From: Aequorivita sp.
Lineage (GTDB): Bacteria; Bacteroidota; Bacteroidia; Flavobacteriales; Flavobacteriaceae
Direction: 5' to 3'
NCBI GenBank assembly: GCA_034676445.1
Contig: JAUCCE010000002.1
Coordinates: forward strand, 997,573 to 1,037,572
Length of the DNA stretch: 40,000 nt
Shown: positions 1 through 15,502 of the stretch, piece after piece
How the letters are laid out: the number at the start of each line of letters is the position of its first letter
Numbering within the stretch: position 1 is the stretch's first letter
Notes under the pieces: model-generated
Seen by the model: only the letters and a program-made list of their open reading frames with translations
What the model was told of the DNA's origin: nothing
Database searches by the model: none
Made by a program: the position numbers and the translations under genes

Positions 1-462
1 CACATAATTTATGCGGGCGGTCTCCGTATTGGCGAAGTGATCCGGTTGCGTGTAACCGATGTTCGCAGTGCTGATGGCTACATTTTTATTAAAGACAGCA
101 AAGGCAAGAAGGATCGGCATACGGTGCTTAGTCCCTTTCTTTTGGAACTATTGCGGGAATATTATAAGGAACATAAGCCCAGCTACTGGCTCTTTGAAGG
201 CCAGGACGGTGGCCAATATTCTGCAAAAAGCATTCAAAACATTTACCGAAAAGCAGTTAAGGAGACCAAGAGCAATCCGTGGAGCACGCCACATACCCTC
301 CGGCATTCCTTTGCCACCCACTTAATGCAGCAAGGAGTGAATATTCGGTATATTCAAAGTGCTTTGGGCCATTCCAGCAGCAAAACCACCGAAGTTTATA
401 CCCGGGTATTGGGAATAAGCAATAAAACCTTAAAAAGTCCTTTGGATACGTTATTTGAATAG
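1..462 (+). CDS. tyrosine recombinase (Xer/phage-integrase fold), C-terminal ~153 aa; 5' end outside the window
   Basis: Frame 1 is open from nt 1 (HIIYAGGLRIGEVIRLR...). Catalytic-domain motifs GLRIGE, KGKKDRHTVL, HTLRHSFATHL and LGHSSSKTTEVYTRV (Tyr nucleophile); ends ...SPLDTLFE*. Only ~58 aa between KDR and HTLRH, so no IntI-type extra segment. Confidence 0.9.
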   Translation, partial: HIIYAGGLRIGEVIRLRVTDVRSADGYIFIKDSKGKKDRHTVLSPFLLELLREYYKEHKPSYWLFEGQDGGQYSAKSIQNIYRKAVKETKSNPWSTPHTLRHSFATHLMQQGVNIRYIQSALGHSSSKTTEVYTRVLGISNKTLKSPLDTLFE

Positions 463-507
463 GTTACATTTGATAAAGCGAAATTTCTCCGGTTTGCTCC
501 GTCCAAA

Positions 508-564
508 GTCAATATAAACGACACAAATCGCTCTGAAACTTCGTTTATAGACATGTCGCCTGCT
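508..564 (+). other. candidate attI-like or degenerate attC junction: hairpin plus variant core GTCGCCTGCT
   Basis: Arms gtcaatataaacga (508-521) and tcgtttatagac (541-552). 555-564 GTCGCCTGCT is the reverse complement of 1043-1052 AGCAGGCAAC except T->C at core position 3. Right arm resembles the family C right arm cgtttatacgagacGTT. Confidence 0.4.
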
Positions 565-611
565 ATTTGAAAGAAAAACCACTAATCGAATAATTAAACA
601 AACAAATAAAT

Positions 612-710
612 ATGAGCACCTTTTATAATAAAGAAACTAAGAGAATCACTTGGATTTCTTTGGTCATAATTTTATTCGTTTTGCTAATAATAAAGTTTAT
701 AGTAAAATAA
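612..710 (+). CDS. possible 32-aa hydrophobic peptide (MSTFYNKETKRITWISLVIILFVLLIIKFIVK) in cassette 1
   Basis: ATG-to-TAA ORF read by eye (below the ORF-track cutoff); single predicted TM helix; no homology evidence. Confidence 0.25.
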   Translation: MSTFYNKETKRITWISLVIILFVLLIIKFIVK

Positions 711-1045
711 TCTCTAACAATCAAAGACGATTTAAAAAAAAAAGATTTTTGGTCGATTGGGAAAGAAGAAAAAGTTGAGCGGAAAAACTGCGGAACCAAG
801 AAAAAAGGGATTTCGGCACTTTTGGCATCGGACGGGATTTTGGAGAAAGACCATTTTTAGTCGGTTAAGGTTCGTGAAAGAAGAAAAAAGTTGCTCGGAT
901 TTTAACAAACTGTTTCCGAAAGAGATTTAGGAAAGTCGAGTATCGGAAGCGTAAAACCGACGAAAGCCGTTTTCTTTTTGCGATGGTCTGTGAAAGAAAA
1001 AAAGCGGAACGCAAGGAAAACGGAGGGGGACCGCAGGAAAACAGC

Positions 1046-1241
1046 AGGCAACAAGGTATAAAAAAAATAGGGCAATTAAGTGCTAAGCCCAATGTTTTAG
1101 AATATTTACGAGGTCGCCAAATCTTCTGATTTGGCTTTTAGAATAAAAATATAAAACAAAATGCAAAAGATTTGGCTTGTGGATAATCCGAAAGGTAATT
1201 GTTTATTTTCAGCCCTACTTCTTTTATACTAAACGTTGCCA
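1046..1241 (+). other. attC-like site, family A (A1)
   Basis: R'' AGGCAAC 1046-1052 and R' GTTGCCA 1235-1241. Arms tataaaaaaaatagggc / gccctacttcttttata pair; central gccaaatc-tt(c/t)t-gatttggc hairpin. Four family A copies in the window. Confidence 0.85.
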
Positions 1242-1254
1242 CCAATTTGAATAA

Positions 1255-2406
1255 ATGACGAAAGTGAAATTCATATATCTATTTTTTATACTAGCAATTT
1301 TCAGTTGCAAGTTGGATAAAAAGAATGTACCGAATAACTTGATTGGTGAATGGAGTAAAATCGACGAAATAAAACGTAAGGATTCTCCTCCGCCGCCATT
1401 CAATGAACCTTTCGGTATTGGATTTACAGAAGACAGAATTGAGTTTTTTAATGGTTTCAAACGGTTTGACCAAGATTCTATTTCAAGAAAACGACACTTA
1501 AACTATAAAGGAACATTTGCTGATTACAAAGTTCAAGTGGATAGTATATTTATTCTTGACCCATTTAATGAAAAGTGGGAGTTTAAATGGAAAATAACGA
1601 AAAATTTATCTGACACTTTAATTCTAACATCCAACGATTCCACATCTATAAAGCTTGAAAGAATTAACAACAGCAAATCAAATATAAATTTTGACCAAAT
1701 TATATTCTCTAGTTCCTATTGTTATGGTTCTTGTCCAGTAATTGACATTTCAATTGATAACAAGAATAAGGTATATTATCAAGGGGAAGATTATGTAAAT
1801 CCTCTAGGAATTTATGAATCATCCATTGACAACCTCAAAACAAAATATATATTTTCAAAGTTCGGAAATGCAAATATTGATAGTTTACTAAATAATTATA
1901 GAGCAAACCATACCGATGACCGAACTATTACAACAACATTTGTTAAAAATGGTAAAATAGTAAAAACCATTCGCGACTATGGTAAAACTGGTCCAAAAGA
2001 ATTGGTTTGGGCTTATGTTCCAATAGAAAATTTACATACTCAAATTGAACTCGATAGTTTAAAAAAGAATCAATTTCATCATTTTAAAATTGAGTTTGGT
2101 AATTTTCACAACAATCATCATTTTTTGCCAATCGAAAAGTCGGAAAGCTTTTTTTTATGGACAGAACTTAGTAAATCAAAAAGAGTATCCGAAAAATTCA
2201 ATTCTAAGTACTCCATCACATATTGGCAGCCTGAATCAGATGAAAATGGAAAACAACAATACGAAATTGATAGAATTGAAACTGATGGAAGATTTTTTAA
2301 ATTTTATTATAACAAACACGAATCAGTGACTTATGATTTAGGATATGATTTTATCAAAAGAAATTATAAGGAATCTGATTTTTATGAGAATTCAAATAAT
2401 AATTAA
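1255..2406 (+). CDS. hypothetical secreted protein / probable lipoprotein (383 aa), cassette 2
   Basis: Long ORF with an N-terminal signal-like MTKVKFIYLFFILAIFSC (Cys after the hydrophobic core). The CYGSCPV segment is reminiscent of DUF6438-type proteins (weak recollection). No function assignable. Confidence 0.75.
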   Translation: MTKVKFIYLFFILAIFSCKLDKKNVPNNLIGEWSKIDEIKRKDSPPPPFNEPFGIGFTEDRIEFFNGFKRFDQDSISRKRHLNYKGTFADYKVQVDSIFILDPFNEKWEFKWKITKNLSDTLILTSNDSTSIKLERINNSKSNINFDQIIFSSSYCYGSCPVIDISIDNKNKVYYQGEDYVNPLGIYESSIDNLKTKYIFSKFGNANIDSLLNNYRANHTDDRTITTTFVKNGKIVKTIRDYGKTGPKELVWAYVPIENLHTQIELDSLKKNQFHHFKIEFGNFHNNHHFLPIEKSESFFLWTELSKSKRVSEKFNSKYSITYWQPESDENGKQQYEIDRIETDGRFFKFYYNKHESVTYDLGYDFIKRNYKESDFYENSNNN

Positions 2407-2705
2407 AAAAAACTGGTGGCAATAACTAAGCATTCGTGTGGTCGGAACGACCCAACATGAATGCAGTGTTGACTGAACCGGTTTTTGTCGGTTTGCCCTA
2501 TGGGGATTGGTCTAGTTTGGGATGGATCTTTAGGAGTCGGTCTTTCCTGATTTGGGATCGTTGACCTCTTTTTTTGCTAAGGAATCAATGTGTACTGTTC
2601 ATTTGTAGTTTCTCTTCTCTGCTTTTCAGGTCTGTCAGGCCGTTTTCTTCCCCCGAAGTTTCGGGGTGGCCATAGGAGTCCCGTTACGTCGGGATTCACG
2701 TTTTT

Positions 2706-3860
2706 TTAAATGGGTCTGTTTAACTGTTTTTTGATCTGTTCTTGCCAGTGTTGCGGTGGTCCCCGGGCGGGGAAGGTCGCGATGGTGACCAGGTTGCCTT
2801 TCTTGCATGCCGGACACTTGCGGTGCATCAAAGGCTCTGTTTCCGCAAGCTCTGGTTTGCCAACCACTTCTTGTAATTCTGGGATAATAGTTCGCTTATA
2901 ATAACTGCTCAAGATGCCGTAATGCCTGATACGGGTAAACCCCTTGGGCAGGATATGCAATGAAAACCGCCTGATAAACTCGGCATCGGGCAGGCCGAGT
3001 ATCGACTTTTTGCCCCCTTGCCGATAATCCTTTACCATAAACGTTACTTTTCCATCTTCCAGGCTTTTTAGCCGATGGTTGCTTATGGCGATCTTATGGG
3101 TATAGCGACCGAGGTATTCCACTACCTGTGAGGGCCCAAAGAATGGACGTTTGCAATAGACCACCCAGTTGTGCCTGAACAGGCTTTCGTAAAATGAAGG
3201 GGGCTTTGATTTCCCCAGTTCCTTGCGCAGGCCAGCTACAAAACGGGCCCTAAAGACCTTGCCCATTGCCTTTACAGGGAACAGGTAGCGTGCCGTTCGG
3301 CAGCCAGGCTTTCCCTTGCTTTTGGCATGTTTCCATTTGCCGGATTGGGTGATCCCGCCCCCCGGGACGATGCAGTGCAGGTGTGGGTGCAACGAGAGGT
3401 TCTGGCCCCAGGTGTGCAGGATGGCGACCATGCCCATCTTGGCGCCCAAGAACTTGGGGTTGGCACCAAAATCCCCAATGATGCCCCAGGCCGTTTTGAA
3501 CAAAAGGTCGTACACCAATTTTGGCTCGTACAGACATAATTGGTTCAGTTCACAGGGCAGGGTAAAGACCACGTGGAAGTAAGAAACGTTCAATAGATCT
3601 GCCTCCCTTGCCCGGATCCATTCTTCCTTCCTGTGTCCCTGGCACTTGGGGCAATGACGGTTGCGGCAGCTGTTGTAACTGAGATGGAGCTTATGGCAGG
3701 TAGGATTGTCGCAACGGTCTATGTGGCCGCCCAGGGCCGCGGTGCGGCACTTGCGAAGGGCGTGCAGGGTGCGTGCTTGCCAGCTGTTGGCACAAAGATC
3801 GGCAAGGCTCTCCCTGTTGCGCTCCAATACGTGCGCTACTTCATGATCGGGACAGGACAT
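2706..3860 (-). CDS. IS91-family (HUH, Y2) rolling-circle transposase
   Basis: N-terminal Cys-rich zinc-binding region (CDNPTCHKLHLSYNSCRNRHCPKC), HUH-like LHPHLHCIVPGGG, Tyr pair in VVEYLGRYTHK. 384-aa ORF; start overlaps the upstream recombinase stop. Confidence 0.9.
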   Translation of the reverse strand: MSCPDHEVAHVLERNRESLADLCANSWQARTLHALRKCRTAALGGHIDRCDNPTCHKLHLSYNSCRNRHCPKCQGHRKEEWIRAREADLLNVSYFHVVFTLPCELNQLCLYEPKLVYDLLFKTAWGIIGDFGANPKFLGAKMGMVAILHTWGQNLSLHPHLHCIVPGGGITQSGKWKHAKSKGKPGCRTARYLFPVKAMGKVFRARFVAGLRKELGKSKPPSFYESLFRHNWVVYCKRPFFGPSQVVEYLGRYTHKIAISNHRLKSLEDGKVTFMVKDYRQGGKKSILGLPDAEFIRRFSLHILPKGFTRIRHYGILSSYYKRTIIPELQEVVGKPELAETEPLMHRKCPACKKGNLVTIATFPARGPPQHWQEQIKKQLNRPI

Positions 3861-3862
3861 CC

Positions 3863-4765
3863 CTATTGGCCATAAAGCCTATCCAGCGGACTGAATGGCC
3901 TTTGCCTACCCGATTGTGCCACATGAAGGTAGATAAGCGTAGTCTGGATATCCGCATGCCCCAAGAGGTCTTTCACGCTCATAATGTCCAGGCCCATTTC
4001 CAAGAGATGGGTGGCATAAGTGTGGCGCAGAATATGGGCGGTGATCTCCTTTGGGATCCCGCTTTGCTTGCGGGCCTCACGTACGATCCATTGTATTCCC
4101 TGTGAGGAAAGCTGTGCAGGACTGCCTGTTTTATCATTGCCGGTAAAGCACCAGGTAGTGGGGTTTTCCGCCAAGAAGTACTTCTTTAGACCACGGATTT
4201 GCATCTCGGACAGGGGAACATACCGGTCCTTGCGTCCTTTGCCCTGGCGCACGTGCACCATCTTCCTGTCAAAGTCCAGGTCCCTGCACTGTAGGTTGCG
4301 GAGTTCAAAATTGCGGAGCCCACAACCATAGAGCATCGCAAGTATCAATCGGTGCTTGAGTAATTTAGGGGTCTTCAGCAGTTGTTTTATCTCCCTTTGG
4401 TTCAACACAACGGGGAGTTTCTTGGGGCGTTCAATGGAAGGAAGTACCACCCGCATTTCTTTCATGCCAAAGACACGGTAGGCATAGCGAAGACCATAGA
4501 CGGTGTGCTTGAAAAAACTGTCCGAAGGGGTCTTGTGCTGTGACTTTAAAACGTGCAGATAGTCCAAGATTCTGTTCCTCATCGAGCTCCAGTGGGCTAC
4601 AGTTAAAATGGAGTGCGATGTGTGCCAAACAGCGGGCATAGTTGGTAAGGGTGCTCTGGCTTTTGCCAGCGAGCTCAACAGATCGTTTGAGTTTGTGGTA
4701 GAGTGTTGCAAACTCTGGAACGGAAATAATTGCCCTTTGGATAAGGGTGTCATTTTTTTTTTCAT
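3863..4765 (-). CDS. tyrosine recombinase/integrase, translationally coupled to the IS91-family transposase
   Basis: GLRNFEL, GKGRKDRYVPL, HILRHTYATHLLE, LGHADIQTTLIYLHV motifs; ends ...SPLDRLYGQ*. Same architecture as the recombinase at 1-462. Confidence 0.9.
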   Translation of the reverse strand: MKKKMTPLSKGQLFPFQSLQHSTTNSNDLLSSLAKARAPLPTMPAVWHTSHSILTVAHWSSMRNRILDYLHVLKSQHKTPSDSFFKHTVYGLRYAYRVFGMKEMRVVLPSIERPKKLPVVLNQREIKQLLKTPKLLKHRLILAMLYGCGLRNFELRNLQCRDLDFDRKMVHVRQGKGRKDRYVPLSEMQIRGLKKYFLAENPTTWCFTGNDKTGSPAQLSSQGIQWIVREARKQSGIPKEITAHILRHTYATHLLEMGLDIMSVKDLLGHADIQTTLIYLHVAQSGRQRPFSPLDRLYGQ

Positions 4766-4854
4766 AATATTGAGTATTAGATTAAACCTTAATTCCTAAA
4801 GGTAGTGAATCGTGACATAACTGTCCCGTGAAGCTACCTTTAGGTTTAGTTCAA

Positions 4855-5045
4855 CACTGTATAAAAAAAATAGGGCAAGCAAGTGCTAAACCCAATGTTT
4901 CAAGCACATTTGCGAGGTCGCCAAATCTTTTGATTTGGCTTTAGAACAAAAATATAAATTAAAAATGCAAAAGATTTGGCTTGTGGATAATCCGAAAAGT
5001 AATTGCTTATTTACAGCCCTACTTCTTTTATACTAAACGTTGTGG
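4855..5045 (+). other. attC-like site, family A (A2), right part; its R'' is split by the IS91-family insertion (left part 2417-2422)
   Basis: c-actgtataaaaaaaatagggcaagc...gccctacttcttttatactaaacGTTGTGG; R' GTT at 5039-5041. Confidence 0.85.
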
Positions 5046-5125
5046 GAGAGTTTATAGAGGTAAAAGTTGGAGTAAGCAATACTCAAAAATCGTCTGAAAA
5101 TGGGTTCTGGAATCTCAGCAAAAAT

Positions 5126-5377
5126 GAAAACACGGTTTTTAGGCTGTGGAATCCCAAAATCCCATCTTGGGCAGTTTTGTGTTTGCTAAAGGAGGCTCCT
5201 GTCGGATAGCAACTGGACGCAGAGGTTTTGTTTCGGCATTTCTTTCGAAGTTGGTGCTGTGGGATTTTGGGATTCCGTCAAAGGCAATCGCTTATTTTCT
5301 CAAGATAGTAGAGGGCGCAACGTATGAAGATTTTTTAAGTAGGTGTCTATTTGCGAAGGATTAAAAACCGTGTTTTC
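5126..5377 (+). repeat. nested long-range inverted repeats inside ORF-less cassette 3 (candidate structured RNA/DNA element)
   Basis: Outer 16-bp perfect pair 5126-5141 / 5362-5377 and inner 17-bp perfect pair 5148-5164 / 5260-5276. The only ORFs here are a 68-aa ORF starting in attC A2 and a 72-aa ORF without support. Confidence 0.5.
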
Positions 5378-5433
5378 GGCAAACTTTTGAGGTCATTTCC
5401 TCTCCGCGATGGTCCGTGACCTGGAAAACCCTC

Positions 5434-5620
5434 CCACAACACCAGCTATAAGCAATGCGGGATAAGTGCCAAACCGGAAAGCAGTTGTATATTTACGAGG
5501 CCGCCAAAACTTTTTGGCGATTAGAATAATAAGAAATTAAAGAACAAAAGTTTTGGCTTAGTGCAAATTCGAAAATTATTGCATTTTTGCCCCGCACTGC
5601 TCATAGCCGAGACGTTGTGG
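5434..5620 (+). other. attC-like site, family B (B1)
   Basis: R'' CCACAAC 5434-5440 and R' GTTGTGG 5614-5620. Arms gctataagcaatgcggg / ccccgcactgctcatagc; central cgccaaaactttttggcg palindrome. 187 bp. Confidence 0.85.
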
Positions 5621-5983
5621 GCTATGTAGAAGGAATTCCAATAAAACGGAATCGACACTCAAAAATTGACGTTCTTACCAATAAAAAACGAACTAAATCC
5701 AGCGGAACCAATTGCGGGCGGATTAAAGAAAAAATGTCGGAAAGATTTTTATCCGAACTGAAAACCGTTCAGCGGACTTAAAAAAGTAGCGGATAAAAAA
5801 GAGAAAGATTTCCAATCATTGCGTCGGACTTTTATCAGCGGAACGCAAGCAACAGCGGAAAAGAAAGCTTATTTGCGAAATCTGGGTTTTAATCATCAAA
5901 GACAAGTGAATTTCTGCGATGGCTGGTGAAAGAGAAAAAAGGAAAACGGAATCAGAACGCAAGCAGAATATAAAAAACACAGC

Positions 5984-6170
5984 CCACAACATTAGCTATA
6001 AGCAATGCGGGATAAGTGCAAAACCCGAAAGCAGTTGTATATTTACGAGGTCGCCAAAACTTTTTGGCGATTAGAACAATAAGAAATTAATGAACAAAAG
6101 TTTTGGCTTGTTGCGAATTCGAAAATGATTGCATTTTTGCCCCGCACTGCTCATAGCCGAGACGTTGTGG
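5984..6170 (+). other. attC-like site, family B (B2)
   Basis: AGCCCACAAC 5981-5990 complements 5614 GTTGTGGGCT; R' GTT at 6164-6166. Confidence 0.85.
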
Positions 6171-6195
6171 GCTATGTGAAAAAAATAAATCATAA

Positions 6196-6378
6196 ATGGA
6201 TTTTATAAATCTAACTGTCGGAATTCTACTAATTACACTTGGGATTTTTCTAATTGTATTCTATAAAAAACTAAAAACTAAGAATAAAAGAGGAGGTTTA
6301 TCATTTAAATTACAAACAGCTGGAATTGGCGCTTTGATTATTGGAATCGGTTTAATCATAAGGGAATTTTGGAAATAA
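6196..6378 (+). CDS. small membrane protein (60 aa, two hydrophobic helices), cassette 5
   Basis: ATG ORF 30 nt after the cassette start: MDFINLTVGILLITLGIFLIVFYKK...TAGIGALIIGIGLIIREFWK. No homology evidence. Confidence 0.45.
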   Translation: MDFINLTVGILLITLGIFLIVFYKKLKTKNKRGGLSFKLQTAGIGALIIGIGLIIREFWK

Positions 6379-6630
6379 AATTATGGAAAAGAAAATTCTT
6401 AATTGAAGGAACCGATTCAGCGGAGAAGGAAAAAATTTCTAAACAATACCGAAAAGAATGTAACAATTGCGTCTGACCTTTATCAGCAGAACCCAAGCAA
6501 CGGCGGAAAAGAACCCTTATTTGCGAAATCTGTGTTTTAATCATCGAACGCAAGTGATTTTCTGCGATGGCCATTGAAAGATAAAAAAGGAAAACGTAAG
6601 CAGAACGCAATCGGAGCGAGCAAACACAGC

Positions 6631-6817
6631 CCACAACACAAGCTATAAGCAATGCGGGATAAGTGCCAAACCGAAAAGCAATTGTATATTTACGAGGTCG
6701 CCAAAACTTTTTGGTGATCAGAATAATAAGAAATTAAAGAACAAAAGTTTTGGCTTATTGCGGATTCGAAAATGATTGCATTTTTGCCCCGCACTGCTCA
6801 TAGCCGAGACGTTGCCT
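6631..6817 (+). other. attC-like site, family B (B3)
   Basis: AGCCCACAAC 6628-6637 complements 6164 GTTGTGGGCT; R' GTTGCCT 6811-6817. Confidence 0.85.
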
Positions 6818-7121
6818 GTCATTTAAGGAAATAAATCATAAAGAAAAAATGTCCGGTTTTTCAATTTTTTTCGGACAATTAAGCGGAATAGGATAACATA
6901 GCGGAATCGAGTAAAAAGACTTTCAATCAATACGCAAGCAACGACGGAATCGGTCCGATGCCTTGAGCAACAAAGCGGAGCAACGCCGAAACTTTAGCTT
7001 GTTTGCGGAATTTAGAAAAAGAAATAAAATTTCGGAAACCTCTGACAAAGTCGAATTCCAATGACCAAGCAGTTACAGAGCGGAATAATGATGGAGACAG
7101 CGCACAAAAACGCCAGGCAAC
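6812..7121 (+). repeat. ORF-less cassette, diverged member of cassette family X (roughly 90% identical by eye to the 11764-12076 unit, with an indel)
   Basis: Starts TTGCCTGTCATTTAAGGA and ends CAGGCAAC like the X copies. Alignment by eye shows scattered substitutions and a 1-nt indel near 7005-7030. Confidence 0.8.
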
Positions 7122-7301
7122 ACAAGCTATAAGCAATGCGGGATAAGTGCCAAACCGAAAAGCAGTTGTATATTTACGAGGTCGCCAAAACTTTTTGGCG
7201 ATTAGAATAATAAGAAATTAAAGAATAAAAGTTTTGGCTTATTGCGAATTCGAAAATGATTGCATTTTTACCCCGCACTGCTCATAGCCAAAACGTTGCC
7301 A
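7115..7301 (+). other. attC-like site, family B (B4)
   Basis: CAGGCAAC 7114-7121 complements 6811 GTTGCCTG; R' GTTGCCA 7295-7301. Confidence 0.85.
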
Positions 7302-7315
7302 CCAATTTAAAAAAG

Positions 7316-7918
7316 ATGCCGATATTTATATATTCAGCCTTATTTCTGCTCATTATTTTATTGATAAAATTGTTGTTTGACAGAAAACGAAATTGCGGTT
7401 TTAGAATACTAGCAATTTTTGGAATCATTATCGGACTTAGTTTATTGGGATTAAATCATTTATTTAATAAAGCATTTGGTGCTTCAACGCCAGTTAATAT
7501 TCGAACTGAAAATCTGACCAGCGAAAATTTAAAAATTTATTCGATTAAATTCTGGGATAATACCTGGAACGGTAAAAGGAATTTTGTCAATTACGACACA
7601 GAACTGAAACCAAATGAAAAATCAAATGACTTTTGGTTTGAGAATGACGGAACGACAGAATTCTGGGTTGTGGCAAAAAACAATAATAATGAGATAGAAT
7701 ACTTAAATATCGTTACCGAAAACGACAGGGAATTTGTTTTTAAAATAAGAGAAAATCAAAATATTGATTTACAGAAAAAACAAATAGCCCAACAATTAAC
7801 AATGAAAGCAGACAAAGAAGAACAAATCAAAAGTTATGCAATATGGGCAAACATCATATTAATCGGACTTCTGACAATAAGTTTGGTGGATATTAAAACT
7901 GGTGGCAACAAGGCATAA
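7316..7918 (+). CDS. hypothetical membrane protein (200 aa), cassette 7
   Basis: First ATG inside the cassette (the track ORF start at 7256 lies in attC B4). N-terminal TM helices and a C-terminal TM helix. The stop lies inside attC C, read through R'' (..KTGGNKA*). Confidence 0.7.
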   Translation: MPIFIYSALFLLIILLIKLLFDRKRNCGFRILAIFGIIIGLSLLGLNHLFNKAFGASTPVNIRTENLTSENLKIYSIKFWDNTWNGKRNFVNYDTELKPNEKSNDFWFENDGTTEFWVVAKNNNNEIEYLNIVTENDREFVFKIRENQNIDLQKKQIAQQLTMKADKEEQIKSYAIWANIILIGLLTISLVDIKTGGNKA

Positions 7919-8031
7919 ACGCAATAGCGGGTAAGTGCAAAACCTGAAAGTATTTTATAAATCTAAGATCAGTTATAAACCGAAAAGTCAGTGCGTCAAT
8001 CCCGCTACTGCGTTTATACGAGACGTTGTAG
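7903..8031 (+). other. attC-like site, family C (129 bp)
   Basis: GGTGGCAAC 7901-7909 complements 7295 GTTGCCACC. Arms cataaacgcaatagcggg / cccgctactgcgtttata; R' GTTGTAG 8025-8031. Confidence 0.8.
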
Positions 8032-8043
8032 CACATTAAAAAA

Positions 8044-10167
8044 ATGAAAACAATACTCATAATACTAATTGTATTTGGAATGCAAAATGTATTCAGCCAA
8101 TCTGATACTTATAATTTAGGGTTTGAAAAAACAATAAGAGATAATACAATATCAGATTGGAAGAAAAAAAATGACGGTATAGATATAACGTTAGATTCCA
8201 TCACTAAATTTCAAGGAAAATATTCACTTAAAATAAGTTCCAACGATAAAAAAGACATTGGTATTTTAGGAATCGAAAATATAATCAATAAATCTTTTGA
8301 GGGAAAAGAAATTGAATTGAACGGTTATCTCAAATCTGAAAATATACAAAGCGCATATATTTATTTAATTGTTGGGGATGAAAAAAGTCAATTTTCATTT
8401 GCTATGAGTCCTACAATCTCTGGAACTACGGATTGGAAAAAACTCACCGTAAAAATCCCATATACCTCGGAATCTAACAAAATCACAATTGCTTGCAACA
8501 TCGACGGCTCTGGAAAAGTTTGGCTAGATAATTTGAGTTTAAAGATTGATAACACTAATATTAATGTACTAAAGTCAATAAAACAAAGCAGTGTTTTCGA
8601 TTCAGAATTTGCTTTAAATGAACTTTCCGAAAAAGAAGTAAATAAATTACAATTGCTAGGAAAATTGTGGGGTTTCTTAAAATATTATCATCCAAAAGTA
8701 GCAACTGGAGATTATGATTGGGACAAACAGTTATTTCAAATGTTGCCATTAATAAAAGAGGATGACTTCGATTCAAAATTGGAAGAATGGGTTGCATCAT
8801 TAGGAAATTTGCAAATTCAAATGACAATAAAAGCACATCAAAATATAAAATTTTCTTCAGATTTTAAATGGTTCAATAACAAGTTTATCACTCCAAATTT
8901 AAAGAATCAGTTAACGAGTATTACAAAAGCAAAAAGACCAGAAACTAATTATTATGTAAACATTCCTCAAGAAATACCTAGTCCAATATTTCAAAATGAA
9001 AAGATATACAGTACCATAAATTATAATGATGATGGCATAAAACTTTTGGCACTTTTCAGATATTGGAATTACATTGAATATTTTTATCCTTACAAATACT
9101 TGATTACCTCCGATTGGAATTCTGTTTTAAAAGAATTTATCCCAAAAATTCAAAAAGCTAAAAATGAAACAGAATACACACTTTGTCTTGCAGAACTGAT
9201 CGCAAGAACTGAAGACACGCATCACTTCATTATCCGAAACAAAATTCTTGAACAGTATTTCGGAGAGTTTAAAGTACCTATTTCAACGCAGTTTATTAAC
9301 AATGAACTTGTAATCCTAAATTCTTATTCCAAAAACTTAAAGGATGGAGATATCATTCAAAAAATAGACAGCCTATCCACAAAAACACTCAGAGAAAAAT
9401 ATATGAAATATTCTGTAGCTTCTAATTTACCCACAACGCTAAGAGAGGTTGCTAAAAAAATAATCCGAACCAATAGGGAAAATGTTGAGCTGACTATATT
9501 AAGGGATGGAATAGAATTTAAAACAACAGTCAATACTATTCCCTTTAACGAGCAATTCATAGGAATAAAATCTTCGGAGCAGATTAAAGAACTTACCCCC
9601 GATATTGGTTATTTAAATACTAAATATTTGAAGTTTGAAGATTATGATTCTATTTTTTATAAATGGCAAAATAAAAAGGCGATCATATTTGATCTGAGAA
9701 ATTATCCAAAGGAAAATTTTATCAAATTATTACCCTATCTTCACGAGAAGCCAATAAGTTTCTTCAGGTCCACCTCTACAAGTTTACAAAGACCCGGTTA
9801 TTTTTCCTTTGAACCAATAATAAATTTTGAAACAAAAAATGGATATCAGTTTAATGGAAAAATAATTGCACTTGTAAATAATGAATCGCAAAGTAAATCG
9901 GAATTTAATGCCCTCGCACTAAAATCTTATTCAAAATCAACAATTGTAGGAAATCAAACAGCAGGTACAGATGGTGATGTTACACAGATAGTATTGCCGG
10001 GAAATGTACAAACTGAAATGACAGGAATCGGTATTTATAAATTAGACAAAAGCGAAACACAAAAAGTGGGCATAAAACCTGATATTGTCATAAATCCAAC
10101 GGTAAAAGATATAAAAAATAATGAAGATGTTATTTTAGAAGCTGCAATTAGAGAAGCATCAGAATAA
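8044..10167 (+). CDS. S41-family (C-terminal processing/tail-specific type) peptidase, secreted, 707 aa, cassette 8
   Basis: Signal peptide MKTILIILIVFGMQNVFSQ. The C-terminal block IIALVNNESQSKSEFNALALK...TIVGNQTAGTDG...GIKPDIVI matches the S41 catalytic-domain pattern from memory. Confidence 0.75.
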   Translation: MKTILIILIVFGMQNVFSQSDTYNLGFEKTIRDNTISDWKKKNDGIDITLDSITKFQGKYSLKISSNDKKDIGILGIENIINKSFEGKEIELNGYLKSENIQSAYIYLIVGDEKSQFSFAMSPTISGTTDWKKLTVKIPYTSESNKITIACNIDGSGKVWLDNLSLKIDNTNINVLKSIKQSSVFDSEFALNELSEKEVNKLQLLGKLWGFLKYYHPKVATGDYDWDKQLFQMLPLIKEDDFDSKLEEWVASLGNLQIQMTIKAHQNIKFSSDFKWFNNKFITPNLKNQLTSITKAKRPETNYYVNIPQEIPSPIFQNEKIYSTINYNDDGIKLLALFRYWNYIEYFYPYKYLITSDWNSVLKEFIPKIQKAKNETEYTLCLAELIARTEDTHHFIIRNKILEQYFGEFKVPISTQFINNELVILNSYSKNLKDGDIIQKIDSLSTKTLREKYMKYSVASNLPTTLREVAKKIIRTNRENVELTILRDGIEFKTTVNTIPFNEQFIGIKSSEQIKELTPDIGYLNTKYLKFEDYDSIFYKWQNKKAIIFDLRNYPKENFIKLLPYLHEKPISFFRSTSTSLQRPGYFSFEPIINFETKNGYQFNGKIIALVNNESQSKSEFNALALKSYSKSTIVGNQTAGTDGDVTQIVLPGNVQTEMTGIGIYKLDKSETQKVGIKPDIVINPTVKDIKNNEDVILEAAIREASE

Positions 10168-10173
10168 AACGTG

Positions 10174-10369
10174 CTACAACAATGTATAAAAAAAATAGGG
10201 CAAGCAAGTGCTAAACTCGATGTTTCAGGCACATTTGCGAGGTCGCCAAATCTTTTGATTTGGCTTTAGAACAAAAATATAAAACAAAATGCAAAAGATT
10301 TGGCTTGTGGAAAATCCGAAAGGTGATTGCTTATTTACAGCCCTACTTCTTTTATACCAAACGTTAGCT
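10174..10369 (+). other. attC-like site, family A (A3)
   Basis: GTGCTACAAC 10171-10180 complements 8025 GTTGTAGCAC; R' GTTAGCT 10363-10369. Confidence 0.85.
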
Positions 10370-10397
10370 GCAAGGTAAAAAGACGAATAAATATAAA

Positions 10398-10916
10398 ATG
10401 AGTAACGAAACTCCAATGATAAACATTCTGACTTACCAACTTCCTTACAAGTTGACAAATCAGATATATAATGAATATCAAAGTCGACTCAAAGAAGCCA
10501 CCTATCTAATCGTGAATTACAAAACTTACAGCGCTTTAAGTCAACATATTAATACTGTCGAGCTATTTCTTTCTCTATCAATTTTCCATAAAAGAGTAAT
10601 AACTAACCTTGATGGAGCAGTTAAATTTTACGGTACGGTAACTAAAAAAGGACAAACGGACACAATTCAGATTGGTGGATATAAAATGACAGGAGATGAA
10701 AAGAATAAAATTCTTGCAGTTGTAATGAACTACAATCAACTACTTGAGAAATTTTCCATTCCGCCAGTAGTTATGGAATATTTCGAAACACGAGAGTTCT
10801 TGAAAAAATTGATTGTATATAAATCTGAAATTGATAATGACAACAACAACCAAAAACCAAAAGGGAAAAAAAGCAACAGAGACAACCAAGAAGACGACCT
10901 CGACATCCCCTTTTAA
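10398..10916 (+). CDS. hypothetical protein (172 aa), first gene of two-ORF cassette 9
   Basis: ATG ORF 35 nt after the cassette start. Acidic/basic low-complexity tail (NDNNNQKPKGKKSNRDNQEDD). No recognisable motif. Confidence 0.55.
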   Translation: MSNETPMINILTYQLPYKLTNQIYNEYQSRLKEATYLIVNYKTYSALSQHINTVELFLSLSIFHKRVITNLDGAVKFYGTVTKKGQTDTIQIGGYKMTGDEKNKILAVVMNYNQLLEKFSIPPVVMEYFETREFLKKLIVYKSEIDNDNNNQKPKGKKSNRDNQEDDLDIPF

Positions 10917-11643
10917 AAGTCATACGCAGTTTGAGAAAGAAATTAGAGAATTTGCAAATAAGTATAAAACTATTGTTGTTAATCAAGCAAAAAGAACAAG
11001 TGACTATTTCGAAATGACCTGCTACAATTATATCATAAGATTCTACGAAAACAATGGATATGACGTGTCAGTTGAAAATTTACAATCAGGTAAGTACAGG
11101 TATAAATGCTCTCCTTCAGGAATACAATCAAATTTTTCTCATTTTTTAGTTAGTAAAAAGGTAAAGAACAGAAGAAAGAATTTTGAAATACAACATAACG
11201 TTGCTATTCAAAGCTCACAAGATGATGAGATATTTACTACTCCTGACATAGCAATTATCAAAAAAGGAAAAGTAAAATATACCAAAGACTACTACGACAC
11301 CAAAACAACATTCTCGTATGTTGAAAACAAGAACTTAATTTCATTCTGTGAAGTAAAACAGTTTAATCCATTCCCTGAATTATTGTTCAATTTTATTGGA
11401 GTAGTAAATGAGCTGAAAAAGGAATATATGACTGATGAAGGTAAAGATGAATCACCGCCACATATTGCTCCAAGCTTGATGATATCAGGAAAGCCAAATA
11501 AACAAACTAAAAGAATTAGAGAATCACTCGAAAACAGGTACTGTATTAATATATTTTATGATTTGTTTTATAGTGCAACTTATACTTTTTCAAAGGGAAA
11601 TGTAAGTCAAATACGAAACACAGGAAAAAAACCCAGCAGCTAA
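10837..11643 (+). CDS. PD-(D/E)xK-type nuclease-like protein (268 aa from ATG 10837; alternative ATG 10813), second gene of cassette 9
   Basis: Motif series YFEM ... TPDIAIIKKG ... FCEVKQ fits E / PD / (D/E)xK restriction-endonuclease-like geometry. Overlaps the upstream ORF by 80-104 nt in the +1 frame. Stop TAA lies inside R'' GCTAAC. Confidence 0.55.
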   Translation: MTTTTKNQKGKKATETTKKTTSTSPFKSHTQFEKEIREFANKYKTIVVNQAKRTSDYFEMTCYNYIIRFYENNGYDVSVENLQSGKYRYKCSPSGIQSNFSHFLVSKKVKNRRKNFEIQHNVAIQSSQDDEIFTTPDIAIIKKGKVKYTKDYYDTKTTFSYVENKNLISFCEVKQFNPFPELLFNFIGVVNELKKEYMTDEGKDESPPHIAPSLMISGKPNKQTKRIRESLENRYCINIFYDLFYSATYTFSKGNVSQIRNTGKKPSS

Positions 11644-11769
11644 CAATGTATATAAAAAATAGGCGAAATAGTAGTAAATTCAAGGGTTTTGAACTCGTAT
11701 CAAACTTTGTGCTTAACCGAAAGTTTTGTGCTTCGAAATCGCCTACTTTTCATATACTAACCGTTGCCT
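11638..11769 (+). other. attC-like site, family D (D1, 132 bp)
   Basis: GCAGCTAAC 11636-11644 complements 10363 GTTAGCTGC. Arms tatataaaaaataggcga / tcgcctacttttcatata; R' GTTGCCT 11763-11769. Confidence 0.85.
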
Positions 11770-12069
11770 GTCATTTAAGGAGATAAGATCATAAAGAAAA
11801 ATGTACGTTTTTTTCGTTTTTTTTCGGACACTTGAGCGGATCTGAACAACATAGCGGAATCGAGTAAAAAGACTTCCAATCAATACGCAAGCAACGGCGG
11901 AATCGGTCCGATGCCTTGAGCAACAGAGCGGAGCAACGCCGAAACTTTAGCTCGGTTGCGGAATTTCGGGAAAGAGAATAAAATTTCGGAAACCCACTGA
12001 CAAAGTCGGCTTCCAATGACCAAGCAGTTACTGTGCGGAACAATGATGGAAACAGCGCACAAAAACGCC

Positions 12070-12258
12070 AGGCAACATCGGTTATAAGCAATGCGGGATA
12101 AACGCTTAATCCAAAAGCAGTTGTATATTTGCGATGCCGCCAAAATTTCATTTTGACGACAACAGAAAAATAAAGTAAAAAATAAAATTTTGGCTTATTG
12201 CGAGCTCGAAAATGATTGCATTTTTGCCCCGCACTGCCCATAACCCAGCCCGTTGCCT
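12070..12258 (+). other. attC-like site, family B variant (B5)
   Basis: CAGGCAAC 12069-12076 complements 11763 GTTGCCTG; R' GTTGCCT 12252-12258. Confidence 0.85.
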
Positions 12259-12558
12259 GTCATTTAAGGAGATAAGATCATAAAGAAAAATGTACGTTTT
12301 TTTCGTTTTTTTTCGGACACTTGAGCGGATCTGAACAACATAGCGGAATCGAGTAAAAAGACTTCCAATCAATACGCAAGCAACGGCGGAATCGGTCCGA
12401 TGCCTTGAGCAACAGAGCGGAGCAACGCCGAAACTTTAGCTCGGTTGCGGAATTTCGGGAAAGAGAATAAAATTTCGGAAACCCACTGACAAAGTCGGCT
12501 TCCAATGACCAAGCAGTTACTGTGCGGAACAATGATGGAAACAGCGCACAAAAACGCC

Positions 12559-12747
12559 AGGCAACATCGGTTATAAGCAATGCGGGATAAACGCTTAATC
12601 CAAAAGCAGTTGTATATTTGCGATGCCGCCAAAATTTCATTTTGACGACAACAGAAAAATAAAGTAAAAAATAAAATTTTGGCTTATTGCGAGCTCGAAA
12701 ATGATTGCATTTTTGCCCCGCACTGCCCATAACCCAGCCCGTTGCCT
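12559..12747 (+). other. attC-like site, family B variant (B6)
   Basis: Identical to B5, shifted by 489 bp. Confidence 0.85.
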
Positions 12748-13047
12748 GTCATTTAAGGAGATAAGATCATAAAGAAAAATGTACGTTTTTTTCAATTTTT
12801 TTCGGACACTTAAGCGGATCTGAACAACTTAGCGGAATCGAGTAAAAAGACTTCCAATCAATACGCAAGCAACGTCGGAATCGGTCCGATGCCTTGAGCA
12901 ACAGAGCGGAGCAACGCCGAAACTTTAGCTCGGTTGCGGAATTTCGGGAAAGAGAATAAAATTTCGGAAACCCACTGACAAAGTCGGATTCCAATGACCA
13001 AGCAGTTACTGTGCGGAACAATGATGGAGACAGCGCACAAAAACGCC

Positions 13048-13236
13048 AGGCAACATCGGTTATAAGCAATGCGGGATAAATGCTTAATCCAATAGCAGTC
13101 GTATATTTGCGATGCCGCCAAAATTTCATTTTGGCTACAATAAAAAAATAAAGTAAAAAATAAAATTTTGGCTTATTGCGAGTCCGATGATGATTGCATT
13201 TTTGCCCCGCACTGCCCATAACCCAGCCCGTTATAG
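13048..13236 (+). other. attC-like site, family B variant (B7)
   Basis: R'' AGGCAAC 13048-13054 and R' GTTATAG 13230-13236. Confidence 0.85.
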
Positions 13237-13239
13237 CCA

Positions 13240-14439: not shown

Positions 14440-14454
14440 CAAAAAGAGCACTGG

Positions 14455-14585: not shown

Positions 14586-14656
14586 GCAAGCTGAAGAAAC
14601 CAGATAACATTTGAAAAAATTGTACCTTTACGTAAGTCAATAGTGATAAATAAAAT

Positions 14657-15493: not shown

Positions 15494-15502
15494 GAATTAT
15501 TA

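What the first reader, a model, noticed from the sequence alone, without database searches (positions are those of the whole stretch)
1..564. Array-proximal tyrosine recombinase is not a canonical IntI: co-oriented with the cassettes and lacking the IntI extra segment
Seen: the recombinase gene ends at 462 on the same strand as all cassettes, and the first junction site starts 46 nt later. There are ~58 aa between the KDR and HTLRH boxes. As I recall it, class 1 IntI has about 100 aa there, because IntI proteins carry a family-specific extra segment (ALER region) needed for attC recombination. The region here (LLREYYKEHKPSYWLFEGQDGGQYSAKS) looks Xer-like. It has the same architecture as the recombinase carried by the IS91-family element at 3863-4765; both end ...SPLD.L. 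Inference, three options. (a) A non-IntI recombinase services this array, which would be a new integron-like system. (b) The array is an orphan cluster and this gene is a relic of an IS91-type element that lost its transposase. (c) The true intI lies upstream of nt 1.
Basis: partly seen in the sequence, partly recalled or inferred. Interest (0 to 1): 0.8.

Follow-up and report, generated by a model that had tools for sequence, protein, structure and literature searches.

The report
Integron-like array with a non-IntI recombinase
A chromosomal gene-cassette array in a flavobacterium has all the hallmarks of an integron, but the recombinase at its head lacks the segment thought essential to integron integrases and carries a different extra domain, so it looks like a second, largely undescribed version of the integron.

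Summary
Window 1-462 (+) is the last 153 aa of a tyrosine recombinase with a complete catalytic set. It has 58 aa between KDR and HTLRH, against 100 in IntI1, and it is co-oriented with the cassettes.

It is not a relic, and no canonical intI was found near it. In 80 related loci (Flavobacteriales, Cytophagales, Saprospiraceae) the same ~376-aa protein heads an array. A conserved ~60-nt hairpin site ending in GTT lies 30-150 nt after its stop codon. Cassettes occur only downstream.

The cassettes are integron-type. Each starts GTTNNNNNN and ends with the complementary NNNNNNAAC, which opens a 120-190-nt imperfect palindrome. This holds for 16 of 16 cassettes in the window. In 38 of 47 testable loci the first cassette pairs with the recombinase-proximal site in the same way.

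Stem mismatches are A·C on the top strand, hence G·T on the bottom, 165 times against 9. That argues for a folded bottom-strand substrate.

The protein scores nearest to IntI and archaeal XerA but misses the IntI cut-offs. It lacks the I2 insertion and has an N-terminal domain that is weakly HARP-like.

The closest described system is rAID-1 of Bacteroidales. Homology to it could not be tested.

This is a new variant of a known kind. Recombination has not been shown experimentally.

The parts
1..462 (+). C-terminal 153 aa of the array-proximal tyrosine recombinase. The window cuts the gene; relatives are ~376 aa.
   Evidence: PF00589 at E 8.5e-36. Best NCBIfam hit is TIGR02249 at 124 bits, below the cut-off of 265, in two stretches that skip the IntI insertion. 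The closest relatives are Aequorivita at 91-95% identity. The stop falls 8 codons earlier than in those relatives.
497..557 (+). Primary (attI-like) hairpin site. Stem 513-521 / 541-549, spacer GACAT 550-554, core GTC 555-557. Relatives have GTT at the core.
   Evidence: Perfect 9-bp inverted repeat. A homologous site is visible after the stop codon in nearly all 80 loci. Compensatory changes are seen in the distal stem. GTCGCCTGC at 555-563 is complementary to the first cassette's R'' GCAGGCAAC at 1044-1052.
555..24290 (+). Array of about 20 co-oriented cassettes, followed by housekeeping genes on the other strand.
   Evidence: In 16 of 16 cassettes, at least 5 of the 6 variable R-box bases are complementary between the cassette's own 5' start and its own 3' R''. 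There are 11 distinct hexamers. Beyond 24.3 kb lie FTHFS, GlnRS, a tRNA, RNase R and GluRS.
1044..1237 (+). attC-like site 1: R'' GCAGGCAAC ... GTT.
2415..2422 (+). Left part (GGTGGCAA) of the R'' of attC-like site 2, split by the IS91-type element.
2423..4854 (-). IS91-family element (Y2 transposase 2706-3860, IntI-like recombinase 3863-4765) inserted at AA^C of the R'' box. It is a parasite of the array, not part of its machinery.
   Evidence: Y2_Tnp, Zn_Tnp_IS91 and PF00589. The same element (82% identity) is inserted at the same R'' position of a different attC in L011.
4855..5041 (+). Remainder of attC-like site 2.
5432..5616 (+). attC-like site 3
5982..6166 (+). attC-like site 4
6629..6813 (+). 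attC-like site 5
7113..7297 (+). attC-like site 6
7901..8027 (+). attC-like site 7. Its L' half, GCGTTTATAC, resembles that of the primary site.
10172..10365 (+). attC-like site 8
11636..11765 (+). attC-like site 9
12068..12254 (+). attC-like site 10, in the first of three tandem copies of a 489-nt cassette.
12557..12743 (+). attC-like site 11
13046..13232 (+). attC-like site 12
14453..14581 (+). attC-like site 13
16507..16634 (+). attC-like site 14. It ends the two-gene EcoRI-type restriction-modification cassette.
16937..17123 (+). attC-like site 15
17883..18077 (+). attC-like site 16
18809..18816 (+). Left part (GCCGCTAA) of the R'' of attC-like site 17, split by a group II intron.
18817..20673 (-). 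Group II intron inserted antisense at AA^C of the R'' box.
   Evidence: The ORF at 18898-20175 (-) has RVT_1 and GIIM domains. Rfam RF02001 and RF01998 match at 20262-20557 (-).
20674..20795 (+). Remainder of attC-like site 17.
22846..23004 (+). Last recognisable attC-like site, with a degenerate R''.

Best explanation
Window 1-462 is the 3' end of the cognate integrase of an integron-like cassette platform typical of Bacteroidota outside the Bacteroidales.

The enzyme is a 'simple' tyrosine recombinase of ~376 aa. Its core-binding and catalytic domains are about as close to integron integrases as to archaeal XerA. It lacks the IntI-specific I2 insertion. It carries an extra N-terminal ~75-aa alpha/beta domain, possibly a HARP-like reader of DNA structure. 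Its gene reads in the same direction as the cassettes.

Directly after its stop codon lies a short hairpin site of the form R''-like box / stem-loop / TATAC-N5 / G|TT. This site serves as the insertion point, the role attI plays in integrons.

Each cassette is a circularisable unit that ends in a 120-190-nt imperfect palindrome (R'' NNNNNNAAC, spacer, L'', variable loop, L', spacer, G|TT). Exchange happens at or next to G|TT, so each cassette's first bases are complementary to its own R''.

Shown here: the anatomy, the exclusive 5' position of the recombinase, the crossover position, and the strand asymmetry of the stems.

Inferred: this recombinase catalyses the exchange. The substrate is the folded bottom strand, as in integrons, with strand choice set by G·T (bottom) against A·C (top) pairs rather than by extrahelical bases read by I2. 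The N-terminal domain helps to recognise the folded DNA.

In this particular window the platform may be decaying: the core is GTC instead of GTT and the stop is 8 codons early.
For: 1. Family and position. 282 relatives were found in species-representative genomes, and 80 loci were fetched. 69 of 80 frames are open for at least 360 aa. A conserved hairpin site follows the stop codon in nearly every locus. Compensatory changes occur in 5 of 10 stem pairs.

2. Polarity. attC-like sites number 66 in 634 kb upstream against 187 in 333 kb downstream. Cassette start/end complementarity links number 0 upstream and 78 downstream.

3. Insertion point. In 38 of 47 testable loci, each with a different hexamer, the 6 nt after the primary GTT are complementary to the R'' of the first cassette. 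In the window, 16 of 16 cassettes obey the rule, against 42 of 256 non-adjacent pairs.

4. Crossover. Two copies within one genome (L029 and L032) are identical up to ...ACTGATGTT and diverge right after it. Nine contigs end 0-2 nt after the primary GTT, one of them from an isolate.

5. Cassette mobility. Window cassette 5039-5613 is the first cassette in L011, at 81% identity over 575 nt. attC types are shared across genera.

6. Strand asymmetry. In 86 distinct sites there are 165 top-strand A·C pairs (bottom-strand G·T) against 9 of the reverse kind, p = 3e-38. With DNA parameters the bottom strands fold at -437 kcal/mol in total, the top strands at -401.

7. Not IntI. TIGR02249 gives 124-208 bits against a cut-off of 265, in two stretches that skip ~182-238. 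In 2a3v, residues 183-246 face 21 residues. The KDR-to-HTLRH spacing is 58 against 100.

8. Still IntI-like. The top Foldseek match of the model is 2a3v_A (E 4e-17), followed by XerA. The SPLD C-terminus is shared with IntI1.

9. No canonical intI lies within 10 kb on either side in any locus.

10. Parasites typical of attC sites. A group II intron and an IS91-type element both sit at AA^C of an R'' box, antisense to the cassettes.
Against: Nothing here shows catalysis; every link between protein and sites is comparative.

The window holds only the C-terminal 153 aa. Its N-terminal domain, upstream partner gene and upstream 10 kb are inferred from relatives. The source contig could not be found.

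Whole genomes could not be scanned, so a canonical IntI elsewhere that acts in trans is not excluded.

Nine of 47 loci gave no match between the first cassette and the primary site. My site finder is crude. The attC sites are related by descent, so the p-value overstates independence.

The A·C / G·T asymmetry could instead serve to weaken hairpins in the sense mRNA.

The HARP assignment is weak. The best Foldseek E-value is 0.05. The Pfam HARP hit reaches the cut-off only in one paralogue.

The primary site of this window has GTC rather than GTT.
Confidence: 0.75

Rival explanations
1. Option (b): the array is an orphan cluster, and the gene at 1-462 is the remnant of an IS91-type element (recombinase plus Y2 transposase) that lost its transposase.
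For: The IS91-linked recombinase at 3863-4765 has the same I2-less architecture and the SPLD end, and is 34% identical. Such elements do insert into these arrays: in the window, in L011 and in L016.
Against: None of the 80 loci has a Y2 transposase next to this gene. The family has a conserved N-terminal domain that the IS91-linked protein lacks. Its position relative to the primary site is fixed. A divergent partner gene is conserved in 59 of 76 loci, and secA is syntenic in one clade. The IS91-type elements lie antisense inside attC sites, not at the head of arrays.
Confidence: 0.03
2. Option (c): a canonical intI with its attI lies upstream of nt 1 or elsewhere in the genome and services the array. 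The gene at 1-462 is then a passenger, or a cassette-borne or accessory recombinase.
For: The cassettes and their AAC/GTT boxes look so much like integron cassettes that a true IntI would be the default expectation. The window does not show the upstream region.
Against: A search with a validated IntI1 finds no other IntI-like gene within 10 kb on either side in any of 80 loci. The upstream side is ordinary chromosome, with no cassette links. The first cassette abuts the site just after this gene's stop in 38 loci. IntegronFinder surveys found only In0 elements and a single complete integron (Salinibacter) in Bacteroidetes (PMC9024848). The stems show no conserved bulged bases of the kind the I2 segment reads.
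Confidence: 0.07
3. The recombinase does service the array, but by ordinary double-strand, two-step (Xer/Cre-like) exchange at the short AAC/GTT core boxes. The long palindromes would then be something else, such as terminators, promoters or binding sites for host factors.
For: The protein lacks the I2 segment that specialises IntI for folded single strands (PMC4792948 abstract). Its best sequence match among solved structures is XerA, which acts on double-stranded DNA. The circle junction of the IS91-type element is a small palindrome of a double-strand type.
Against: The A·C / G·T asymmetry of 165 against 9 means only one strand can form the full stem, which has no obvious role in duplex recombination. 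Distal stems co-vary while loops are free. A group II intron of the kind that targets folded attC sites sits at the R'' box.
Confidence: 0.15

Closest known systems
Integrons (IntI, attI, attC cassette arrays), especially sedentary chromosomal integrons and the 'inverted integrase' group of Treponema (from memory)
   Same: Arrays of co-oriented, mostly single-gene cassettes. Each cassette ends in an imperfect palindrome bounded by an inverse core ...AAC and a core GTT... . The crossover is inferred at G|TT, so each cassette start is complementary to its own R''. The stems are strand-asymmetric. attC types and cassettes are shared between genomes. The cargo includes restriction-modification and other defence-type genes. 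A group II intron is inserted antisense in an attC. The recombinase is a simple tyrosine recombinase with an IntI-like core and SPLD C-terminus.
   Different: The recombinase lacks the I2 / additional domain and scores below TIGR02249 and NF011946. It has an extra N-terminal domain. It is co-oriented with the cassettes and immediately upstream of them. The insertion site is itself a short attC-like hairpin, not a linear attI. The attC-like sites are long (120-190 nt) with G·T / A·C asymmetry instead of conserved extrahelical bases. A divergent zinc-ribbon partner gene is conserved. The hosts are Flavobacteriales, Cytophagales and Saprospiraceae, where complete integrons are essentially unreported (PMC9024848).
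[quoted passage not shown] 2019, bioRxiv 10.1101/471110; 10.1101/2025.05.03.651265)
   Same: [quoted passage not shown] Intergenic motifs are repetitive and were described as integron-like. The host phylum is Bacteroidota.
   Different: rAID-1 is defined in Bacteroidales by at least 44% identity to BF9343_RS08045 and by a cargo of orphan immunity genes. Here the hosts are other orders and the recognisable cargo is general: DUF6438, S41 peptidase, FAD monooxygenase, an EcoRI-type restriction-modification pair, HNH, and cNMP-binding regulators. Homology of the two recombinases could not be tested. In the text I could read, the rAID papers do not describe hairpin sites, G|TT crossovers or the absence of I2.
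The 'integron-like' subgroup of simple tyrosine recombinases (Smyshlyaev et al. 2021, PMC8138268) and archaeal XerA (4a8e, 5hxy)
   Same: Two-domain core (SAM-like core-binding domain plus catalytic domain). [quoted passage not shown] XerA is the best sequence match among solved structures (137 bits, one continuous stretch).
   Different: No function or site has been assigned to the insertion-less members. XerA resolves chromosome dimers at dif and has neither the N-terminal domain nor an adjacent array.
Tyrosine recombinases linked to IS91-family (Y2 HUH) transposases, such as the one at 3863-4765
   Same: I2-less IntI-like core and SPLD C-terminus. 34% identity to the fragment. Their insertions are associated with AAC/GTT boxes of attC-like sites.
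   Different: They are coupled to a Y2 transposase, lack the N-terminal domain, and are inserted antisense inside attC sites as mobile parasites. They are not at the head of arrays.

Membership tests
Integron integrase (IntI) | Tyrosine-recombinase catalytic residues R-K-H-R-H-Y | tested here: met
   R9, K37, H98, R101, H124 and Y133 are present in the window fragment. They are invariant in the family alignment.
Integron integrase (IntI) | IntI-specific additional domain (I2 helix, ALER region) between the K box and the HxxR box | tested here: not met
   The spacing is 58 aa against 100 in IntI1. VchIntIA residues 183-246 face 21 residues. TIGR02249 positions ~182-238 are skipped.
Integron integrase (IntI) | Score above the curated cut-off of TIGR02249 (265 bits) or NF011946 (435 bits) | tested here: not met
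   TIGR02249 gives 124 bits for the fragment and 185-208 bits for the longer relatives tested. NF011946 gives 89-135 bits. The IntI1 control scores 508.6 and 799.5 bits.
Integron integrase (IntI) | Encoded next to the insertion site of an array of attC-bounded cassettes | tested here: met
   True in the window and in 38 of 47 testable loci. Cassette links are found only downstream.
Integron integrase (IntI) | Recombines the folded bottom strand of attC by reading extrahelical bases | not testable with these tools
   The stems show strand asymmetry but no conserved bulges. Biochemistry is needed.
Integron (the system) | Cassettes bounded by an imperfect palindrome with inverse core ...AAC and core GTT..., with each cassette start complementary to its own inverse core | tested here: met
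   16 of 16 cassettes in the window and 78 links in related loci.
Integron (the system) | A linear, non-palindromic attI next to a divergently transcribed intI that carries the Pc promoter | tested here: not met
   The primary site is a hairpin with covarying stem pairs. The recombinase gene is co-oriented with the cassettes and upstream of them. Promoters were not analysed.
rAID-1 (Ross et al. 2019) | 5' recombinase at least 44% identical to B. fragilis BF9343_RS08045 | not testable with these tools
   That sequence is in none of the collections I could reach. The paper states that homologues above 50% identity are confined to Bacteroidales.
rAID-1 (Ross et al. 2019) | Two or more co-directional downstream genes with GC of 41% or less, and repetitive intergenic motifs | tested here: met
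   About 20 cassettes on the + strand. Most 1-kb windows of the array have 29-42% GC; higher values fall in the IS91-type element and the group II intron.
rAID-1 (Ross et al. 2019) | Cargo of orphan immunity genes against interbacterial toxins | tested here: inconclusive
   Pfam finds DUF6438, Peptidase_S41, FAD_binding_3, EcoRI endonuclease and methylase, HNH, cNMP_binding, DUF4386 and DUF998. Several cassettes gave no hit. No immunity-specific profiles were run.
XerC / XerD | Score above the equivalog cut-offs TIGR02224 and TIGR02225 (about 330 bits) | tested here: not met
   105-189 bits.
IS91-linked recombinase | Adjacent Y2 (IS91-family) transposase within one mobile unit | tested here: not met
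   There is no Y2_Tnp gene after 462; the next 790 nt are non-coding cassette DNA. In all 80 loci the gene is followed directly by the hairpin site and cassettes.

The most novel reading that the evidence does not exclude
A family of I2-less tyrosine recombinases with one to four HARP-like N-terminal domains runs a true single-strand, integron-type cassette system across Bacteroidota, and rAID-1 of gut Bacteroidales is one branch of it. Strand choice would be written in G·T / A·C asymmetry of the hairpin rather than in extrahelical bases. The I2 domain would then not be a prerequisite for integron-type recombination, and the system would be either a sister or an ancestor-like form of the integron.
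Probability: 0.4. Interest if true: 0.9.

Novelty: new variant of a known kind. Interest (0 to 1): 0.82.

Why it matters
Integron integrases are defined by an extra domain that lets them recombine folded single-stranded attC sites. Detection tools such as IntegronFinder require that domain. As a result, Bacteroidota are recorded as almost devoid of integrons.

If this family really services these arrays, three things follow:
- A large reservoir of mobile cassettes in marine and soil Bacteroidota has been invisible to surveys.
- The I2 domain is not the only solution for cassette recombination. That makes the evolutionary step from Xer-like enzymes to integron integrases directly testable with a natural I2-less system.
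- The poorly understood rAID arrays of gut Bacteroidales gain a concrete mechanistic model: a hairpin primary site, a G|TT crossover and a bottom-strand substrate.

The consistent targeting of the R'' box by a group II intron and by an IS91-type element with its own IntI-like recombinase also points to a small ecosystem of parasites on these sites.

Tried and rejected
- Source of the window. An exact 48-nt search of the metagenome collection found nothing. An exact-protein look-up of the cassette-2 protein found only a 1,215-nt contig with the same cassette and the same IS91 junction. The region upstream of nt 1 therefore remains unseen.
- rAID-1 homology. I could not obtain BF9343_RS08045. 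Cluster look-ups of distant representatives returned no organism names.
- Partner protein. The zinc-ribbon partner gave only sub-threshold Prok-RING_1 and zf-FCS hits.
- P0009 loci (L001-L004). At first these suggested the recombinase sits in the middle of arrays. There the gene is N-terminally truncated (217 codons open), so it is a decayed copy.
- Rfam has no family that matches the junction sites.
- Literature. Searches for an integron-like system with such a recombinase in Flavobacteriia, or for HARP-domain recombinases, found nothing beyond rAID.
- My regular-expression and hairpin finders misplace the primary site in about 15 loci. Counts that depend on them are lower bounds.
Full report
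**1. What is at 1-564**

Frame 1 of the + strand is open from nt 1 to a TAG at 460-462. It encodes 153 aa that match the tyrosine-recombinase catalytic domain PF00589 at E 8.5e-36. The catalytic residues R9, K37, H98, R101, H124 and Y133 are all present.

It holds a perfect 9-bp inverted repeat, TATAAACGA (513-521) and TCGTTTATA (541-549). This is followed by GACAT and then GTCGCCTGC (555-563). All plausible genes up to about 24.3 kb are on the + strand.

There are 58 aa between KDR and HTLRH here and 62 in the IS91-linked recombinase at 3863-4765. IntI1 has 100. I recalled the IntI1 sequence from memory and validated it: it scores 799.5 bits on NF011946 (cut-off 435) and 508.6 bits on TIGR02249.

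**2. The array is made of integron-type cassettes**

The intergenic regions are 120-190-nt imperfect palindromes. Each has the same plan:
- a box NNNNNNAAC (R'');
- a 3-5-nt spacer;
- a 14-18-bp stem half (L'');
- a variable middle;
- the other stem half (L');
- a 5-7-nt spacer;
- GTTNNNNNN (R').

A simple finder recovers 17 such sites between 1044 and 18077. Two more lie beyond.

The decisive feature is that the six variable bases after GTT at the start of each cassette are complementary to the six bases before AAC at the end of the same cassette. This holds at 5-6 of 6 positions for 16 of 16 cassettes, with 11 different hexamers. Among non-adjacent pairs only 42 of 256 reach that level, and those reflect duplicated cassettes. 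This pattern is expected if cassettes are circularisable units exchanged at or next to G|TT, as in integrons.

A 489-nt cassette occurs three times in tandem (11763-13229), once more at 16632-17120, and in diverged form at 6811-7294.

The array ends near 24.29 kb. Beyond it lie formate-tetrahydrofolate ligase, GlnRS, a tRNA, RNase R and GluRS on the other strand. The element is therefore chromosomal.

**3. The recombinase is not a relic**

A search of one genome per species found 282 relatives, and the best 80 loci were fetched. They come from:
- Aequorivita (91-95% identical; the likely source genus);
- Gelidibacter, Psychroflexus, Algibacter, Mariniflexile and other Flavobacteriales;
- Algoriphagus (Cytophagales);
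- Saprospiraceae.

The open frame is at least 360 codons in 69 of 80 loci. The full-length protein is about 376 aa. It has three parts:
- a conserved N-terminal ~75-aa beta-beta-alpha-beta-beta-alpha-beta domain with no Pfam match;
- a SAM-like core-binding domain (PF13495);
- the catalytic domain.

None of the 80 loci has a Y2 transposase beside the gene. A divergent ~118-aa CxxC...CxxC protein is encoded directly upstream in 59 of 76 loci. secA is syntenic in the Algibacter clade.

**4. A conserved primary site, and cassettes only downstream**

In nearly every locus a short hairpin site follows the stop codon by 30-150 nt and ends ...TATAC-N3-6-GTT. In the Algibacter group the proximal stem TATAAC / GTTATA is invariant. 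The distal stem varies with compensatory changes in 5 of 10 predicted pairs, for example A-U 7, G-C 7 and G-U 4 at one pair.

attC-like sites are five times denser downstream than upstream: 187 in 333 kb against 66 in 634 kb. Start/end complementarity links number 78 downstream and 0 upstream.

In 38 of 47 loci where a downstream site was detected, the hexamer after the primary GTT is complementary to the R'' of the first cassette. The hexamer is different in almost every genome. The window behaves the same way: GTCGCCTGC at 555 pairs with GCAGGCAAC at 1044-1052.

Two copies in one genome (L029 and L032) are identical up to ...ACTGATGTT and diverge immediately after it. Nine contigs, eight from MAGs and one from an isolate, end 0-2 nt after that GTT. 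An assembly graph breaks in this way where the next sequence is variable.

Window cassette 5039-5613 is the first cassette of an Aequorivita MAG, at 81% identity over its full 575 nt. attC types are shared between genera.

**5. No canonical IntI nearby**

A tblastn search with the validated IntI1 against all loci hits only the array-proximal recombinase, weak unrelated fragments, and two IS91-linked recombinases that lie inside arrays (L011, L016). The IntegronFinder 2.0 survey reports only In0 elements and one complete integron (Salinibacter ruber) in Bacteroidetes (PMC9024848). Whole genomes could not be scanned here.

**6. What kind of recombinase**

NCBIfam ranks TIGR02249 (integron integrase) and NF040815 (archaeal XerA) first and about equal, then XerD and XerC. 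All are below their cut-offs. The IntI profile always aligns in two pieces that skip ~57 positions.

Among solved structures, phmmer gives three matches:
- XerA 4a8e: 137 bits, one stretch;
- VchIntIA 2a3v: 120 bits, two stretches, with IntI residues 183-246 facing 21 residues;
- XerA 5hxy.

An AlphaFold model (pLDDT 79.8) matches 2a3v_A best in Foldseek (E 4e-17). XerA follows closely.

The C-terminal ...SPLD.L motif is shared with IntI1. Smyshlyaev et al. noted that the IntI insertion is 'not fully conserved' within their integron-like subgroup (PMC8138268).

The family is thus an IntI/XerA-like simple recombinase without I2. It is not a member of IntI by any curated criterion.

**7. Strand asymmetry**

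In 86 distinct linked sites, the non-Watson-Crick positions of the 14-bp L stem are overwhelmingly A·C on the top strand, which means G·T on the bottom strand. The count is 165 against 9 of the reverse kind, and 81 of 86 sites lean this way. With DNA parameters, 14 of 16 window sites fold better as the bottom strand. The stems have no conserved bulges.

I read this as evidence that the bottom strand folds and is the substrate, as in integrons, but with a different strand-choice device. The sites are related by descent, and weakening of mRNA hairpins is an alternative pressure. This step is therefore inferred.

**8. The N-terminal domain**

A profile of the domain finds only 135 clusters among 1.84 billion representatives. 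Some are 470-790-aa recombinases with two to four tandem copies of the domain ahead of the same core.

The domain model (pLDDT 82) has no significant PDB match. It does give repeated weak matches to the XPB damage-recognition domain and the MutS mismatch-recognition domain. One paralogue reaches the Pfam HARP cut-off (E 1.4e-5), and 5 of 26 family members give sub-threshold HARP hits. From memory, the HARP, XPB DRD and MutS domain I folds are related readers of DNA structure (Mason et al. 2014).

A domain that reads DNA structure in place of I2 would fit the substrates. This is a lead only.

**9. Parasites of the sites**

A group II intron (RT/maturase ORF, Rfam D1-D4 matches) lies antisense at 18817-20673, exactly between AA and C of the R'' GCCGCTAA|C.

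The IS91-type element at 2423-4854 is also antisense and also at AA^C, here of GGTGGCAA|C. The same element sits at the same position of a different attC in L011. Its joined ends would form the palindrome TTAGTT-CAAT-AACTAA. This suggests that its own IntI-like recombinase integrates it.

**10. Comparison and verdict**

In how it works, this is an integron. By membership, the recombinase fails the defining IntI features, and the insertion site is a hairpin rather than an attI.

The nearest described system is rAID-1 of Bacteroidales. It has a co-oriented 'XerD-like' recombinase, a conserved motif right after the recombinase stop codon, and integron-like intergenic repeats. I could not test homology to it. 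The hosts and the recognisable cargo differ.

I found no paper that describes these sites, the crossover, the loss of I2 or the N-terminal domain.

I rate this a new variant of a known kind. Confidence that this recombinase family is the cognate enzyme of the arrays is 0.75. Confidence in the single-strand mechanism is lower.

In this window the platform may be decaying: the core is GTC and the stop is 8 codons early.

Noticed in passing
window 18817-20673 (-): A group II intron splits an attC-like site exactly between AA and C of its R'' box, antisense to the cassettes. It has an RVT_1 + GIIM ORF at 18898-20175 and Rfam RF02001/RF01998 matches at 20262-20557. From memory, group IIC-attC introns sit in the same way in classical integrons.
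   Followed up: partly
window 2423-4854 (-); L011 ~12947-15346: An IS91-family element (Y2 transposase plus its own I2-less IntI-like recombinase) is inserted at AA^C of an R'' box. An 82%-identical copy sits at the same position of a different attC in another genome. The joined ends would form the palindrome TTAGTT-CAAT-AACTAA. This hints that the recombinase, not the HUH transposase, chooses the target.
   Followed up: partly
L005-L084, about 110 nt upstream of the recombinase start, opposite strand (e.g. L006 8864-9217): A ~118-aa protein with an N-terminal CxxC...CxxC zinc ribbon is encoded divergently next to the recombinase in 59 of 76 loci. It gives only sub-threshold Pfam hits (Prok-RING_1, zf-FCS). 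It may be an accessory or regulatory factor of the system.
   Followed up: partly
proteins P0287, P0294, P0295, P0296, P0302, P0306: Larger recombinases of 470-790 aa carry two to four tandem copies of the family's N-terminal domain ahead of the same SAM-like and catalytic core that ends in SPLD. Their genomic contexts were not examined.
   Followed up: no
window 11763-13229, 16632-17120, 6811-7294: A 489-nt cassette with no convincing sense ORF is present three times in tandem, once more 3.4 kb further on, and once in diverged form. The long ORFs of 150-181 aa on the opposite strand (11789-12241 and others) are probably spurious. Cassettes 1 and 3-5 also lack sizeable ORFs.
   Followed up: no
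window 14579-16631 and 17154-17900: One cassette carries a complete EcoRI-type restriction-modification pair: endonuclease 14657-15493 (PF02963, E 6e-148) and methylase 15503-16597. The cassette starting at 17121 encodes an HNH endonuclease. This is defence-type cargo, as in chromosomal integrons.
   Followed up: partly
window 13240-14439: A cassette encodes a FAD-dependent monooxygenase (FAD_binding_3). Whether it is related to the Tet(X)-type enzymes of flavobacteria was not checked.
   Followed up: no
window 460-462 and 555-557: Compared with Aequorivita relatives, this copy has a TAG 8 codons before the usual stop and GTC instead of GTT at the core of the primary site. The platform may be inactive in this genome.
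   Followed up: partly
L054 (Persephonella MAG), L055 (Deltaproteobacteria MAG): Two contigs filed under non-Bacteroidota MAGs carry a typical family member with its primary site. The L054 contig is 1.8 kb long; the L055 contig (197 kb) ends exactly at the primary GTT. Mis-binning is a likely explanation but was not checked.
   Followed up: no
L085 (Logan SRR24770527, 1,215 nt): A short-read contig from another dataset consists of window cassette 2 plus about 14 nt on each side, including the IS91 junction. The same arrangement therefore exists in that sample, and the assembly breaks at the cassette boundaries.
   Followed up: yes
window 36650-36714; 35021-35116 and 35623-35718: Outside the array there are about 4.5 tandem copies of a 13-nt unit (AGGCACGACAGGC) and a perfect 96-nt direct repeat spaced 602 nt apart.
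   Followed up: no
L001-L004 (ENA metagenome contigs): An N-terminally truncated copy of the recombinase (217 codons open) lies between co-oriented genes. An attC-like sequence is upstream and a primary site is 143 nt downstream. It looks like a decayed or rearranged platform.
   Followed up: partly
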